Below the pieces are notes generated by a model. The model saw only the letters and a program-made list of their open reading frames with translations. It was not told the DNA's origin and ran no database searches. A stretch of 64,000 bases of DNA from Escherichia coli. Its GTDB lineage: Bacteria; Pseudomonadota; Gammaproteobacteria; Enterobacterales; Enterobacteriaceae. The position numbers were made by a program, and so were the translations under genes. The stretch lies in NCBI RefSeq assembly GCF_041248615.1, contig NZ_CP158426.1; one strand, 5' to 3'. This document shows positions 36,476 to 39,006 of the stretch, one piece after another (the stretch's first letter is position 1; every line of letters begins with the position of its first letter).

Positions 36476-37672
36476 ATGAAAACCTGGATATTTATCTGTA
36501 TGTCCATAGCAATGTTGCTATGGTTTTTAAGTACGCTAAAACGTAAACCCAGTCAAAAGAAAGGCTGTATTGACGCCATTATACCTGCTTATAACGAAGG
36601 CCCGTGTCTGGCACAGTCACTGGATAATCTGCTGCGTAACCCTTATTTTTGCCGGGTAATTTGCGTAAACGACGGCTCCACGGACAATACCGAATCGGTC
36701 ATGGAGGAAGTCAAACGCAAATGGGGCGACCGCTTTGTTGCCGTCACGCAAAAAAATACCGGTAAAGGTGGTGCGCTGATGAATGGCCTCAATTACGCCA
36801 CCTGCGACCAGGTTTTTTTAAGTGATGCCGACACCTATGTTCCGCCCGATCAAGACGGAATGGGCTATATGCTGGCAGAAATTGAGCACGGTGCCGATGC
36901 CGTAGGCGGCATTCCCTCTACTGCGTTGAAAGGCGCGGGTCTGTTACCACACATCCGCGCGACCGTAAAGTTGCCGATGATTGTTATGAAGCGCACGCTA
37001 CAGCAGCTCGTGGGCGGCGCACCGTTTATTATCAGCGGTGCCTGCGGGATGTTCCGTACTGATGTATTGCGTAAGTTCGGTTTCTCGGATCGTACTAAAG
37101 TCGAAGACCTTGATCTCACCTGGACATTGGTGGCAAACGGCTATCGTATTCGGCAGGCGAATCGCTGCATCGTATACCCACAGGAATGCAACAGCCCGCG
37201 TGAGGAATGGCGTCGCTGGCGGCGTTGGATTGTGGGCTACGCGGTCTGTATGCGCCTGCATAAAAGACTTTTATTTAGCCGCTTCGGTATCTTCAGTATA
37301 TTTCCTATGCTGTTGGTTGTGCTTTATGGCGTTGGGATTTATCTCACTACCTGGTTTAATGAATTCATCACCACCGGGCCGCATGGTGTGGTGTTGGCAA
37401 TGTTTCCGCTTATCTGGGTCGGCGTAGTTTGTGTTATTGGTGCTTTTAGCGCCTGGTTTCATCGTTGCTGGTTGTTGGTGCCTTTAGCGCCGCTTTCCGT
37501 TGTGTATGTATTATTAGCTTATGCCATCTGGATTATTTATGGACTTATTGCCTTTTTTACTGGACGCGAACCTCAGCGCGACAAACCCACCCGCTATTCC
37601 GCACTGGTGGAAGCGTCAACCGCTTATTCCCAACCTTCTGCTACAGGAACTGAAAAACTATCTGAAGCTTAA
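36476..37672 (+). CDS. yaiP: Membrane-embedded family-2 glycosyltransferase YaiP (synthase-type)
   Basis: 398-aa ORF; GT2 motifs IPAYNEG, VNDGSTDNT, LSDADTY and a QxxRW-like EEWRRWRRW; one N-terminal and several C-terminal hydrophobic helices. Confidence 0.85.
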   Translation: MKTWIFICMSIAMLLWFLSTLKRKPSQKKGCIDAIIPAYNEGPCLAQSLDNLLRNPYFCRVICVNDGSTDNTESVMEEVKRKWGDRFVAVTQKNTGKGGALMNGLNYATCDQVFLSDADTYVPPDQDGMGYMLAEIEHGADAVGGIPSTALKGAGLLPHIRATVKLPMIVMKRTLQQLVGGAPFIISGACGMFRTDVLRKFGFSDRTKVEDLDLTWTLVANGYRIRQANRCIVYPQECNSPREEWRRWRRWIVGYAVCMRLHKRLLFSRFGIFSIFPMLLVVLYGVGIYLTTWFNEFITTGPHGVVLAMFPLIWVGVVCVIGAFSAWFHRCWLLVPLAPLSVVYVLLAYAIWIIYGLIAFFTGREPQRDKPTRYSALVEASTAYSQPSATGTEKLSEA

Positions 37673-38231
37673 TGTTAAAGAGAAAAACATTCAGATTGCA
37701 GACCAGGTAATTATTGATGAAACTGCAGGTGAAGTTGTTATCGGCGCGAATACCCGTATTTGTCATGGTGCCGTTATTCAGGGTCCGGTAGTGATTGGCG
37801 CAAACTGCTTGATAGGTAATTATGCGTTTATTCGTCCTGGCACAATAATCAGCAATGGCGTAAAAATTGGTTTTGCCACCGAAATTAAAAATGCGGTTAT
37901 TGAAGCGGAAGCAACGATTGGTCCGCAATGCTTTATCGCCGACTCGGTAGTTGCAAACCAGGCATATTTGGGCGCACAAGTACGTACCAGTAATCATCGT
38001 CTGGATCAACAGCCCGTGTCTGTTCGAACTCCAGAGGGAATTATCGCTACCGAATGCGATAAATTAGGTTGTTATATCGGGCAGCGTTCACGCCTTGGCG
38101 TACAAGTTATTATTTTGCCTGGGCGAATTATTTCCCCGAACACGCAACTTGGCCCGCGCGTGATTGTAGAACGTAATTTACCTACCGGAACTTATTCACT
38201 CCGACAAGAACTTATCCGTACAGGAGATTAA
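37521..38231 (+). CDS. yaiX: Hexapeptide-repeat (left-handed beta-helix) acyltransferase YaiX, intact
   Basis: 236-aa ORF with repeated [LIV]-G-x-x-x-x hexapeptides (VIGANTRICHGAVIQGPVVIGANCLIGNYAFI...); start uncertain because the ORF overlaps the yaiP 3' end by 152 nt in another frame; stop 1 nt before the yaiO ATG. Confidence 0.75.
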   Translation: MPSGLFMDLLPFLLDANLSATNPPAIPHWWKRQPLIPNLLLQELKNYLKLNVKEKNIQIADQVIIDETAGEVVIGANTRICHGAVIQGPVVIGANCLIGNYAFIRPGTIISNGVKIGFATEIKNAVIEAEATIGPQCFIADSVVANQAYLGAQVRTSNHRLDQQPVSVRTPEGIIATECDKLGCYIGQRSRLGVQVIILPGRIISPNTQLGPRVIVERNLPTGTYSLRQELIRTGD

Positions 38232-38232
38232 A

Positions 38233-39006
38233 ATGATAAAACGGACGTTATTAGCGGCAGCAATTTTTAGCACATTGCCCGCTTATGCCGGGTTAACTTC
38301 CATTACCGCGGGCTACGATTTTACCGATTATTCTGGCGATCATGGCAACCGTAATTTAGCGTATGCTGAACTGGTGGCGAAAGTTGAAAACGCAACGCTG
38401 CTTTTTAATCTTTCCCAGGGGCGTCGTGATTATGAAACTGAACATTTCAATGCCACTCGCGGTCAGGGTGCGGTCTGGTATAAATGGAATAACTGGCTGA
38501 CAACCCGAACGGGTATTGCCTTTGCGGATAATACGCCGGTCTTTGCCCGCCAAGATTTTCGTCAGGATATTAACCTGGCACTGTTGCCAAAAACGCTTTT
38601 CACGACCGGTTATCGCTACACGAAATATTACGATGATGTCGAAGTCGATGCCTGGCAAGGCGGCGTATCACTCTATACTGGCCCGGTGATCACCAGCTAT
38701 CGCTATACCCATTATGACTCCAGCGATGCAGGTGGTAGTTACAGCAATATGATTTCCGTGCGTCTGAATGACCCGCGCGGCACTGGTTATACGCAACTAT
38801 GGCTAAGCCGCGGAACAGGTGCTTACACCTATGACTGGACGCCAGAAACACGCTACGGCAGCATGAAGAGCGTCAGTTTGCAACGTATTCAACCGCTGAC
38901 TGAGCAACTTAATCTCGGGCTGACGGCAGGTAAAGTGTGGTACGACACCCCAACCGATGATTATAACGGTCTGCAACTTGCAGCCCATCTGACCTGGAAA
39001 TTCTGA
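38233..39006 (+). CDS. yaiO: Outer-membrane beta-barrel protein YaiO
   Basis: 257-aa ORF with signal peptide MIKRTLLAAAIFSTLPAYAG, alternating aromatic/hydrophobic beta-strands, C-terminal ...HLTWKF; RBS AGGAG upstream. Confidence 0.88.
   Translation: MIKRTLLAAAIFSTLPAYAGLTSITAGYDFTDYSGDHGNRNLAYAELVAKVENATLLFNLSQGRRDYETEHFNATRGQGAVWYKWNNWLTTRTGIAFADNTPVFARQDFRQDINLALLPKTLFTTGYRYTKYYDDVEVDAWQGGVSLYTGPVITSYRYTHYDSSDAGGSYSNMISVRLNDPRGTGYTQLWLSRGTGAYTYDWTPETRYGSMKSVSLQRIQPLTEQLNLGLTAGKVWYDTPTDDYNGLQLAAHLTWKF

What the first reader, a model, noticed from the sequence alone, without database searches (positions are those of the whole stretch)
37521..37672. 152-nt out-of-frame overlap between yaiP and yaiX with no alternative start for yaiX
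The only in-frame ATG codons for the hexapeptide acyltransferase ORF are at 37521 and 37539, about 150 nt inside the 3' end of yaiP (stop at 37670-37672) in a different frame. Downstream of the yaiP stop there is no in-frame ATG at all and no GTG/TTG until well inside the beta-helix repeats. Either yaiX really initiates inside yaiP, the two are joined by ribosomal frameshifting into a glycosyltransferase-acyltransferase fusion, or one boundary carries an ancestral frameshift.
Basis: seen in the sequence. Interest (0 to 1): 0.4.

Follow-up and report, generated by a model that had tools for sequence, protein, structure and literature searches.

The report
Long real overlap between yaiP and yaiX
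The acetyltransferase gene yaiX of E. coli most likely starts at an ATG 134 bases inside the preceding glycosyltransferase gene yaiP, an unusually long but ordinary-in-kind gene overlap that arose when an ancestral 14-base overlap lost both its start and its stop codon, and which RefSeq annotates with the wrong start.

Summary
The yaiX frame (yaiP +1) has ATGs only at 37521 and 37539. After the yaiP stop (37670-37672) the next canonical start is GTG 37791, inside the beta-helix.

Comparison of 27 loci explains it. In distant bacteria, yaiP ends "...KPTRYxxVVx*" and the acetyltransferase starts ATG/GTG-TGG-TGG (MWW), with a 14-nt overlap and a GAGG Shine-Dalgarno made by an AGG Arg codon.

In one enterobacterial clade (18 lineages plus a second E. 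coli):
- the start codon and the SD were lost;
- the yaiP stop moved 3-25 codons downstream;
- an ATG 66 nt upstream of WW (window 37539) is present in every locus.

Evidence that translation starts at 37539:
- yaiP synonymous variation falls from 0.57 to 0.37 exactly over the new yaiX N-terminus;
- the stretch after WW evolves in the yaiX frame (pN/pS 0.44), while the yaiP tail does not (1.34);
- the ATG lies in the least structured stretch of the two genes.

I found no lineage with a fused gene and no conserved slippery site. I conclude that yaiX initiates inside yaiP, giving a 134-nt dual-coding overlap. RefSeq's CTG 37650 and GTG starts cut off the conserved N-terminus. There is no direct evidence of translation from this start. 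Interest is modest.

The parts
35795..36466 (+). yaiS, PIG-L family deacetylase, first gene of the cluster (intact 223-aa ORF here)
   Evidence: ORF list. Pfam PIG-L E=4e-25. The same gene order PIG-L / GT2 / LbH / YaiO is seen in related loci.
36476..37672 (+). yaiP, family-2 glycosyltransferase with C-terminal membrane segments (398 aa). The last 20 codons (37610-37669) are a clade-specific, unconstrained tail.
   Evidence: Pfam Glycos_transf_2 E=1e-27. Non-enteric homologues are 378-381 aa and enteric ones 393-403 aa. Tail length varies: 1, 3, 8, 15, 20 or 25 codons. Tail pN/pS is 1.34.
37539..38231 (+). yaiX, stand-alone GlmU/ST0452-type left-handed beta-helix acetyltransferase, 230 aa from the conserved ATG 37539 (the longest ORF starts at ATG 37521, 236 aa)
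   Evidence: Pfam Hexapep E=5.5e-18. AF2 pLDDT 92.6. Foldseek best match is ST0452, 33% identity, E=7e-13. An ATG at this position is present in 18/18 derived loci.
37539..37672 (+). 134-nt dual-coding overlap (yaiX frame = yaiP frame +1)
37532..37564 (+). Block of frozen yaiP synonymous sites (ATT ATT TAT GGA CTT ATT GCC TTT TTT ACT GGA). It encodes YaiX M-D-L-L-P-F-L-L-D in the +1 frame.
   Evidence: Per-codon table: TAT/CAT has T in 15/15, GGA 15/15 at two positions, GCC 12/12, ATT 10/10. Outside the overlap, 0 of 61 conserved four-fold columns have an invariant codon, and 1 of 43 two-fold columns has an invariant third base.
37529..37532 (+). Weak SD-like UGGA, 6 nt before ATG 37539 (from the Trp-Ile codons of yaiP)
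   Evidence: Duplex energy -3.1 kcal/mol, which is not above background: 39% of yaiP positions reach -3.0 or lower. TGG followed by a purine occurs in all derived loci but only 1 of 6 ancestral loci.
37509..37568 (+). AU-rich (30-35% G+C), least structured 60-nt stretch of yaiP-yaiX, centred on ATG 37539
   Evidence: dG -3.1 against a mean of -12.3 +/- 4.2; rank 2 of 567 windows. Low structure at this site in 12 of 15 derived loci (z +1.4 to +2.3), not in ancestral loci.
37592..37604 (+). Dead ancestral initiation site. Arg codon CGC (37592-37594) replaces the AGG that formed a GAGG SD. CAC (37602-37604) replaces the ancestral ATG/GTG.
   Evidence: Ancestral loci read ACG AGG TAC nnn nTG TGG TGG, with SD energy down to -7.2. 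Derived loci have -0.4 or weaker at the same place.
37605..37610 (+). TGG TGG, the family-invariant Trp-Trp that is the N-terminus (MWW/VWW) in most homologues
   Evidence: Alignments A1 and A2. N-termini of 120 homologues. WW is also present in CPR bacteria that have no yaiP upstream (L014 and L015).
37613..37615 (+). GCG in the yaiP frame, at the position where ancestral yaiP has its stop codon (TGA)
   Evidence: Junction table: ATGTGGTGGnnTGA in L010-L013, L016 and L017.
37611..37669 (+). Region B: the conserved YaiX N-terminal segment (KRQPLIPNLLLQELKNYLKL) overprinted by the unconstrained YaiP tail
   Evidence: Variability by yaiX codon position is 0.28 / 0.32 / 0.54. Wilcoxon p = 0.003 and 0.006. 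pN/pS is 0.44 in the yaiX frame and 1.34 in the yaiP frame. AF2 pLDDT is 90 or more for residues 21-50.
37650..37652 (+). CTG used by RefSeq/PGAP as the yaiX start (193 aa); probably a mis-call
   Evidence: Annotation of an identical genome. No SD (+1.6 kcal/mol). This is where the NCBIfam Arch_glmU alignment begins (residue 38). It would remove the conserved, confidently folded WW segment.
37553..37558 (+). T6 run in which a +1 slip of tRNA-Phe could in principle join YaiP to YaiX (considered and not supported)
   Evidence: The run is broken in 4 of 15 derived loci. One 911-nt contig carries T5, giving a fused reading.
38233..39006 (+). yaiO, outer-membrane beta-barrel, last gene of the cluster. 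It starts 1 nt after the yaiX stop, behind an AGGAG SD.
   Evidence: Pfam YaiO E=3.5e-26. SD energy -7.4.

Best explanation
yaiS-yaiP-yaiX-yaiO is one operon. YaiX is made by independent initiation at AUG 37539, possibly with some initiation at AUG 37521. This start is in the +1 frame, 134 nt before the yaiP stop. Positions 37539-37669 are therefore read in two frames.

The arrangement is derived. The ancestral junction, still present in Pseudomonas, Acinetobacter, Sphingomonas and others, was a 14-nt overlap, ATG-TGG-TGG-nnTGA. It was preceded by a GAGG Shine-Dalgarno built from the AGG Arg codon of YaiP's KPTRY motif, a classic translationally coupled pair.

In the ancestor of one enterobacterial clade:
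- the start codon and the SD were lost;
- initiation moved to a pre-existing ATG (TAT/CAT+G of YaiP's W-I-I-Y-G), 22 codons upstream;
- the yaiP stop was lost, so YaiP gained a meaningless tail of 3-25 residues.

The new start has almost no SD. It probably relies on the AU-rich, unstructured context.

Shown: the anatomy, the ancestral and derived junctions, and the selection signatures. Inferred: that ribosomes actually start at 37539, and how efficiently they do so.
For: (1) Family N-terminus. Most homologues (about 55 of 120) begin exactly M/V-W-W. This aligns to H-W-W at 37602-37610, inside yaiP. WW is also conserved in CPR bacteria where no yaiP lies upstream.

(2) Ancestral junction. There is a 14-nt overlap in 6 loci, with SD energies of -2.9 to -7.2 kcal/mol (-7.2 in three).

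(3) Derived clade. The derived loci form a single clade in the YaiP tree. All 18 lineages lack the -3 start and have an ATG at -66 (or -63/-69 where there is an indel), with the frame open to WW. This ATG needs a T at a two-fold synonymous site of yaiP. Only 1 of 43 comparable columns is invariant.

(4) Synonymous diversity. In yaiP it is 0.57 +/- 0.04 along the gene and 0.37 over the last 22-33 codons, lower than in any 22-codon window that lies outside the last 33 codons (minimum there 0.484). The drop is seen only in the derived clade; the ancestral values are 0.52-0.72.

(5) After WW. Substitutions follow yaiX codon periodicity. pN/pS is 0.44 for yaiX and 1.34 for the yaiP tail.

(6) Start context. 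ATG 37539 sits in the least structured window of both genes, and this holds in 12 of 15 derived loci. That fits SD-independent start selection (PMC3121790, PMC7043885).

(7) E. coli population. Positions 37505-37615 are >=99% identical in 4843 of 4861 records. Flanking control segments reach 76%, 10% and 3.5%.

(8) Structure. AF2 folds residues 21-50, which the RefSeq start would remove, at pLDDT >=90.

(9) Function. Repairing the IS2-broken yaiX in K-12 gave a yaiP-dependent clumping phenotype, so the native context yields functional YaiX (EcoGene 3.0, PMC3531124; meeting abstract only).
Against: - There is no direct evidence of translation. No ribosome-profiling or N-terminal proteomic data could be accessed.
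- The SD-like UGGA before ATG 37539 is no better than background.
- The derived loci are one clade, so the 18/18 count is not 18 independent trials.
- Conservation of the yaiX-frame peptide in region A is largely forced by YaiP's own conservation. Only the synonymous-site deficit is independent evidence, and it could also reflect an RNA-level element.
- ATG 37521 cannot be excluded as a start in E. coli.
- Several derived lineages also have nearer starts (ATG at -6, -9 or -12), so the start used may differ between lineages.
Confidence: 0.7

Rival explanations
1. The RefSeq model is right. YaiX starts at the non-canonical CTG 37650 (193 aa), 20 nt before the yaiP stop, for example by re-initiation of ribosomes that terminate at yaiP. 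The upstream open frame is untranslated.
For: PGAP annotates it this way in genomes identical or near-identical to the window. Citrobacter and others have GTG or ATG at the same codon. The site lies in a second low-structure stretch. Similarity to characterised GlmU-type enzymes begins there.
Against: - The codon is L/V/M, as expected for a conserved hydrophobic position. In C. cronae it is GTA.
- There is no SD (+1.6 kcal/mol).
- The 15 codons upstream of it, back to WW, evolve under yaiX-frame purifying selection while the yaiP frame does not.
- WW is nearly invariant in the family and is the true N-terminus elsewhere.
- AF2 places the removed residues in a confident structure.
- This model does not explain the frozen synonymous sites at 37532-37564.
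Confidence: 0.1
2. A +1 ribosomal frameshift, for example on the T6 run 37553-37558, joins YaiP to YaiX as a glycosyltransferase-acetyltransferase fusion.
For: yaiX is in the +1 frame. tRNA-Phe could re-pair perfectly on UUU UUU A. The run lies inside the block of frozen synonymous sites. The YaiP C-terminus is probably cytoplasmic, which would suit an acetyl-CoA enzyme (inference). DNA variants with 1-nt deletions that create fusions exist.
Against: - No lineage-level fused gene appears in the 120 listed of 647 YaiP homologues.
- The fusions seen are rare, independent deletions. Most of them remove WW, and at least one (P0150) has yaiP also read out of frame upstream.
- The T6 run is broken in 4 of 15 derived loci, while the ATG is kept in all.
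- There is no 0-frame stop or rare codon next to the run, and no structure downstream.
- The ancestral state is two genes, each with its own SD and start.
Confidence: 0.05
3. In E. coli, yaiX has effectively lost its start and is a poorly translated or untranslated relic. The long open frame is inertia from YaiP conservation.
For: The SD is weak. The operon is broken in K-12 by IS2 in yaiX and an amber codon in yaiS. Frameshifted variants occur in the population. The region after WW is highly polymorphic in E. coli.
Against: - The gene is intact in about 4450 of 5426 complete genomes.
- Purifying selection acts on YaiX across the clade.
- The ATG and the first nine codons are frozen at yaiP-synonymous sites.
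- Repaired yaiX gives a phenotype (PMC3531124).
Confidence: 0.1
4. Initiation occurs at a near-cognate codon close to the old site (ATT 37596, three codons before WW).
For: The codon at -9 is ATT, ATA, ATG or TTG in most of the derived loci, with ATG at -6 or -12 in three others. The yaiP Tyr codon that creates it is invariably TAT. Enterobacter PGRG2 has ATG there and is annotated from it.
Against: There is no SD (+0.4 kcal/mol). The site lies in the most structured part of the junction (dG -16 to -18). AUU and AUA are very weak starts in E. coli (general knowledge). This model does not explain the conserved ATG or the frozen codons upstream.
Confidence: 0.03

Closest known systems
[quoted passage not shown]
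   Same: It is a same-strand, out-of-frame overlap of two functional genes, conserved across enteric genera. The overlap length differs between genera.
   Different: The yaiP-yaiX overlap is 83-149 nt, and 134 nt in this window. It combines a 5' extension of the downstream gene with a 3' extension of the upstream gene. That survey classed this combination as annotation error (its class v). Here the downstream extension has no alternative and carries selection signatures.
Translationally coupled gene pairs with short overlaps (ATGA, or start a few codons before the upstream stop, with the SD inside the upstream gene)
   Same: The ancestral yaiP-yaiX junction is exactly this: ATG TGG TGG nnT GA, 14 nt, with a GAGG SD from an AGG codon.
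   Different: In the window the start, the SD and the stop of that junction are all gone. The start is 131 nt before the stop codon, too far for termination-reinitiation coupling.
Overprinting / start-codon migration models of overlap origin (Fonseca, Harris and Posada 2013, PMC3887535)
   Same: The origin is loss of a stop codon (3' elongation) and loss and replacement of a start codon (5' elongation), by point substitutions and without a frameshift.
   Different: Both events affect one junction. The 22 new N-terminal residues are partly under their own constraint (the first nine codons).
Programmed +1/-1 frameshift fusions (prfB, dnaX, IS3-family orfAB such as the IS2 that disrupts yaiX in K-12)
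   Same: Two overlapping frames lie on one mRNA, the downstream frame is +1, and a homopolymer run lies in the overlap.
   Different: There is no conserved slippery site or stimulator. The downstream frame keeps its own ATG. No fused orthologues exist.
Acetyltransferase (LbH) domain of archaeal-type GlmU, ST0452 of Sulfolobus tokodaii (PDB 5z09, 2ggo)
   Same: YaiX shares the fold and 33% identity over about 185 residues. The WW segment aligns with the linker before the beta-helix (TIGR01208 match from residue 22).
   Different: YaiX is a stand-alone domain without the nucleotidyltransferase half. It scores far below the NCBIfam cut-off (128 against 292 bits). Its substrate is unknown.

Membership tests
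Programmed ribosomal frameshift fusion | A slippery sequence conserved at one position across relatives | tested here: not met
   The T6 run 37553-37558 is interrupted in 4 of 15 derived loci. The A5 run 37653-37657 is not conserved outside Escherichia.
Programmed ribosomal frameshift fusion | The downstream frame lacks its own initiation codon | tested here: not met
   An ATG at -66 is kept in 18/18 derived loci, often directly after a stop codon in that frame.
   Of the 120 listed of 647 YaiP homologues, only P0150 carries both domains. It and P0095, P0255, P0259 and P0031 are rare, independent 1-nt deletions in E. coli.
Programmed ribosomal frameshift fusion | A fusion protein is detected | not testable with these tools
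   This needs a western blot or mass spectrometry.
Translationally coupled short overlap | Downstream start within a few codons of the upstream stop, with an SD inside the upstream gene | tested here: not met
   It is met in ancestral loci (14 nt; SD -2.9 to -7.2 kcal/mol, -7.2 in three). In the window the start is 131 nt before the stop codon and the old SD is gone (+1.9).
Genuine long same-strand dual-coding overlap | Both frames open, and the boundaries conserved across a clade | tested here: met
   There are 18 derived loci from Escherichia, Citrobacter, Salmonella, Enterobacter, Superficieibacter and others. The start is conserved. The stop position varies.
Genuine long same-strand dual-coding overlap | Deficit of synonymous change in the known gene across the overlap | tested here: met
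   0.37 against 0.57 +/- 0.04, below every 22-codon window that lies outside the last 33 codons (minimum there 0.484); absent in the ancestral group. Invariant four-fold codons: 2 of 6 inside, 0 of 61 outside.
Genuine long same-strand dual-coding overlap | Purifying selection in the second frame | tested here: met
   In region B, pN/pS is 0.44 for yaiX and 1.34 for the yaiP tail, with codon periodicity in the yaiX phase (p = 0.003-0.006). In region A, only the first nine yaiX codons show extra constraint.
Genuine long same-strand dual-coding overlap | Direct evidence of translation from the internal start | not testable with these tools
   Supplementary tables of the retapamulin profiling study are not held. 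K-12 carries a broken yaiX.
Hexapeptide (LbH) acyltransferase, GlmU/ST0452 type | Left-handed beta-helix fold with hexapeptide repeats | tested here: met
   Pfam Hexapep E=5.5e-18. AF2 pLDDT 92.6. Foldseek 5z09 E=7e-13, 33% identity.
Hexapeptide (LbH) acyltransferase, GlmU/ST0452 type | Bifunctional architecture, and a score above the curated family cut-off | tested here: not met
   Only the C-terminal part of the profile is matched (positions 224-393 of 393). The score is 128 bits against a cut-off of 292.

The most novel reading that the evidence does not exclude
The 22-residue N-terminus of enterobacterial YaiX (M-D-L-L-P-F-L-L-D...) is a protein segment born de novo by overprinting on the conserved C-terminus of YaiP. 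It has since acquired a function of its own, for example docking YaiX to YaiP or to the membrane. If so, yaiP-yaiX would be the longest evolutionarily supported co-directional dual-coding overlap described in Enterobacteria.
Probability: 0.35. Interest if true: 0.55.

Novelty: new member of a known kind. Interest (0 to 1): 0.38.

Why it matters
1. Annotation. Thousands of RefSeq E. coli genomes carry a YaiX model that starts at CTG or GTG and lacks the family's conserved N-terminus. Four different N-termini circulate (236, 230, 193 and 174 aa). Recent functional work used the 236-aa and a 71-aa form without addressing the start.

2. Overlap biology. [quoted passage not shown] This is a well-supported candidate exception. 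Its evolutionary path is visible step by step: coupled 14-nt overlap, then loss of SD, start and stop, then 83-149-nt overlaps.

3. Expression logic. Replacing a strong SD and coupling with an SD-poor, unstructured internal start should change the YaiP:YaiX ratio. This can be tested with two mutations that are silent in yaiP.

Tried and rejected
- Fused GT2-LbH orthologues. I searched with YaiP. Only sporadic 1-nt-deletion variants turned up, so these were rejected as an architecture.
- Internal sigma-70 promoter or terminator that might explain the frozen sites. No promoter-like site lies in 37300-37750. The hairpin at 37476-37492 is within chance expectation: 3 found, 4.3 expected.
- Strong SD before either ATG. 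None exists.
- Curated NCBIfam model for YaiX or YaiP. None reaches its cut-off.
- Ribosome-profiling evidence. The retapamulin study's supplements are not held. Searches for yaiX and yaiP found no start-site data. One paper mentions only an antisense RNA within yaiP.
- Stop-avoidance test for the open frame in region A. Only 2-3 yaiP codons can create +1 stops, so the test is too weak and I did not use it.
- ATG 37521 as the conserved start. It is present in Escherichia and, among the other derived loci, only in C. cronae, and several lineages have a stop codon between it and 37539.
- Regions C and D (downstream of the yaiP stop). They were not gap-aligned, so I disregarded those values.
Full report
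**What is in the window**

The region is the E. coli cluster downstream of tauA:
- yaiS, a PIG-L deacetylase (35795-36466);
- yaiP, a family-2 glycosyltransferase with membrane segments (36476-37672);
- a hexapeptide/LbH acetyltransferase ORF, yaiX (37521-38231);
- yaiO, an outer-membrane barrel (38233-39006);
- then frmR.

The yaiX frame is the yaiP frame shifted by +1. The 236-aa translation has only two Met codons, ATG 37521 and ATG 37539. The only other canonical starts in frame are TTG 37548 and then GTG 37791 and TTG 37809, deep in the beta-helix.

Public annotation is inconsistent. RefSeq/PGAP starts the protein at CTG 37650 (193 aa) in a genome identical to the window. It starts at a GTG equivalent to 37707 (174 aa) in another phylogroup. 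ENA gene calls give 230 aa. KEGG genomes carry 236 aa (PMC13058169).

**Where the family's N-terminus lies**

A protein search found 526 homologues. Aligned, most of the distant ones (about 50% identity, 204-206 aa) begin exactly M-W-W or V-W-W. This aligns with H-W-W at 37602-37610, which is 65 nt upstream of the yaiP stop. W-W is nearly invariant in the family. It is also the N-terminus in candidate-phyla-radiation bacteria, where no yaiP precedes the gene (L014, L015). The motif therefore belongs to the acetyltransferase and is not a by-product of the overlap.

**Ancestral and derived junctions**

I collected 27 loci from other genomes and anchored them on TGGTGG.

Ancestral type. This occurs in Pseudomonas viridiflava, Acinetobacter, Sphingomonas and several proteobacterial MAGs.
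- yaiP ends "...TGREPxRDKPTRYxxVVx*".
- The acetyltransferase starts ATG/GTG-TGG-TGG, giving the 14-nt overlap ATGTGGTGGnnTGA.
- The Arg of KPTRY is encoded by AGG, which gives a GAGG or AAGG Shine-Dalgarno about 9 nt upstream (duplex energy -2.9 to -7.2 kcal/mol, -7.2 in three of the six).

Derived type. This occurs in 18 lineages: Escherichia, Citrobacter, Salmonella, Enterobacter, Superficieibacter, a Yersinia record, a mobile second copy in E. coli, and others.
- The codon before WW is H, P, R, Y, A or L, so there is no start there.
- The Arg codon is CGN, so the SD is gone (-0.4 kcal/mol or weaker).
- The yaiP stop has moved 3, 8, 15, 20 or 25 codons downstream.
- An ATG lies 66 nt upstream of WW (63 or 69 where there is an indel) in every case, and the frame is open from there to WW.

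The derived loci form a single clade in a YaiP tree. In the window this ATG is 37539. ATG 37521 is found in Escherichia and, among the other derived loci, only in C. cronae. In several lineages a stop codon sits directly before the conserved ATG.

**Selection signatures**

(a) After WW (37611-37669). Variability is highest at yaiX third positions (0.54, against 0.28 and 0.32; Wilcoxon p = 0.003 and 0.006). Nei-Gojobori pN/pS is 0.44 in the yaiX frame and 1.34 in the yaiP frame. Mean amino-acid identity is 0.53 for yaiX and 0.28-0.34 for the yaiP tail. This stretch therefore evolves as yaiX coding sequence, and the YaiP tail is unconstrained. That argues against the RefSeq CTG 37650 start.

(b) Before WW. 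YaiP is strongly conserved, so the only free sites are yaiP third positions. These are yaiX second positions, so every change there alters YaiX.
- yaiP synonymous diversity is 0.57 +/- 0.04 along the gene but 0.37 in the last 22-33 codons. Every 22-codon window that lies outside the last 33 codons is higher (minimum 0.484). The drop is absent from the ancestral group, which shows 0.52-0.72.
- The frozen block is 37532-37564 (ATT ATT TAT GGA CTT ATT GCC TTT TTT ACT GGA). In the yaiX frame it reads M-D-L-L-P-F-L-L-D.
- As an empirical null, only 1 of 43 two-fold columns outside the overlap has an invariant third base. No conserved four-fold column outside has an invariant codon (0 of 61), against 2 of 6 inside.

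(c) Within E. coli. Positions 37505-37615 are >=99% identical to the window in 4843 of 4861 records. Control segments of the same length reach 76% (yaiP only), 10% (yaiX only) and 3.5% (37616-37726).

**Initiation context**

The SD-like UGGA (37529-37532), 6 nt before ATG 37539, gives only -3.1 kcal/mol, which is no better than background. However, the 60-nt window centred on this ATG is the least structured of the whole yaiP-yaiX region: dG -3.1 against -12.3 +/- 4.2, rank 2 of 567, 30-35% G+C. The same holds in 12 of 15 derived loci and in none of the ancestral loci. Published work reports that local absence of structure can support initiation without an SD (PMC3121790) and that start selection in E. 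coli is largely correct without SD pairing (PMC7043885).

**Protein-level support**

AlphaFold2 on a 70-sequence alignment gives pLDDT 92.6. Residues 21-50 (WW and the following helix) score 90 or more, and residues 1-10 score 84. The closest solved structure is the acetyltransferase domain of Sulfolobus ST0452, an archaeal-type GlmU, at 33% identity. The NCBIfam Arch_glmU alignment begins at residue 38, which is exactly CTG 37650. This probably explains the PGAP call.

**Frameshift hypothesis**

A search with YaiP found 647 homologues, of which the best 120 are listed. The only listed protein with both domains is an E. coli variant. That variant and four others (P0095, P0255, P0259, P0031) are independent 1-nt deletions, in the A5 run, a G, a T and the T6 run. 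They are rare, most of them delete WW from the fusion, and at least one (P0150) has yaiP also read out of frame upstream. The T6 run 37553-37558 could in principle allow a +1 slip. It is broken in 4 of 15 derived loci, whereas the ATG is never lost. I give frameshifting about 5%.

**Conclusion**

The most likely reading (about 0.7) is a real 134-nt same-strand dual-coding overlap with YaiX initiating at AUG 37539. It is derived from a translationally coupled 14-nt overlap by loss of SD, start and stop.

It is ordinary in kind: start migration plus stop loss, as modelled in PMC3887535. It is unusual in length. Palleja et al. found no real co-directional overlap above 60 bp, and their longest real case was holD-rimI at 32-56 bp (PMC2478687).

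The only functional data are these:
- repair of the IS2-broken K-12 yaiX gave yaiP-dependent clumping (PMC3531124);
- over-expression phenotypes of the 71-aa and 236-aa forms have been reported (PMC13058169).

Direct proof of the start is missing.

**Caveats**
- The derived loci are one clade, so the counts are not independent.
- There are 18 derived and 6-9 ancestral loci, so the samples are small.
- The pN/pS values in overlapping frames are descriptive, not formal tests.
- The synonymous-site deficit could in part reflect an RNA-level requirement of the initiation region rather than the peptide.

Noticed in passing
window 35795-36466 (+) and 36332-36451 (-): yaiS is an intact 223-aa ORF here. 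K-12 has CAG->TAG at the position of 36350-36352, giving 185 aa. RefSeq annotates the identical genome's yaiS as a C-terminally truncated pseudogene (35795-36157) plus a 39-aa antisense 'hypothetical protein', which is called YkiC in K-12.
   Followed up: partly
window about 37821/37822: K-12 strains match the window only up to about 37821 and then carry IS2. This is the known yaiX' pseudogene, so the window comes from a non-K-12 strain with intact yaiX.
   Followed up: partly
L003 1-685 versus window 35795-36480: E. coli G749 carries a yaiS allele that is far more divergent from the window's than its yaiP/yaiX, which are about 96% identical. This suggests a recombination boundary near the yaiS-yaiP junction.
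   Followed up: no
L025 (E. coli), L009 (Ignatzschineria MAG), P0051 (plasmid): Some E. coli carry a second, divergent copy of the whole PIG-L/GT2/LbH/YaiO cluster (YaiX about 61% identical). A close relative of it also occurs in an Ignatzschineria MAG and on plasmids. The cluster appears to be mobile. Up to 7 places per genome were seen.
   Followed up: partly
L021 3141-3226 (Enterobacter sp. PGRG2): In this lineage the acetyltransferase gene runs 86 nt into yaiO as annotated. This is a second long overlap in the same operon, and I did not examine it.
   Followed up: no
window 37616-37726: The segment just after WW and across the yaiP stop is the most polymorphic part of the region in E. coli. 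Only 167 of 4781 records are >=99% identical to the window, and 987 are at 90-95%. The adjacent 111 nt are almost invariant.
   Followed up: partly
window 37553-37558, 37646-37648 (the GG of CAGGAA), 37653-37657, about 37660; also 36811-36817: Independent 1-nt deletions in short homopolymers in different E. coli assemblies create YaiP-YaiX fused readings (P0150, P0255, P0259, P0095, P0031). P0150 also reads a different frame upstream of ...FLSDADTYVPP. That is where a T7 run (36811-36817) lies in the window, so a second frameshift near that run is inferred but was not checked at the DNA level.
   Followed up: partly
window 35546-35575: There is a near-consensus sigma-70-like site (TTGACA, 18 nt, TACAAT; 11 of 12 matches) upstream of yaiS. 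It is a candidate operon promoter. A published antisense RNA within yaiP is mentioned in PMC4666370.
   Followed up: no
whole cluster 35795-39006: The gene set is a PgaC/NodC-like synthase, a PIG-L deacetylase, a GlmU-type N-acetyltransferase and an outer-membrane barrel. It looks like a machine that makes, re-acylates and exports a GlcNAc-type polymer. This fits the reported clumping phenotype. The product is unknown.
   Followed up: no
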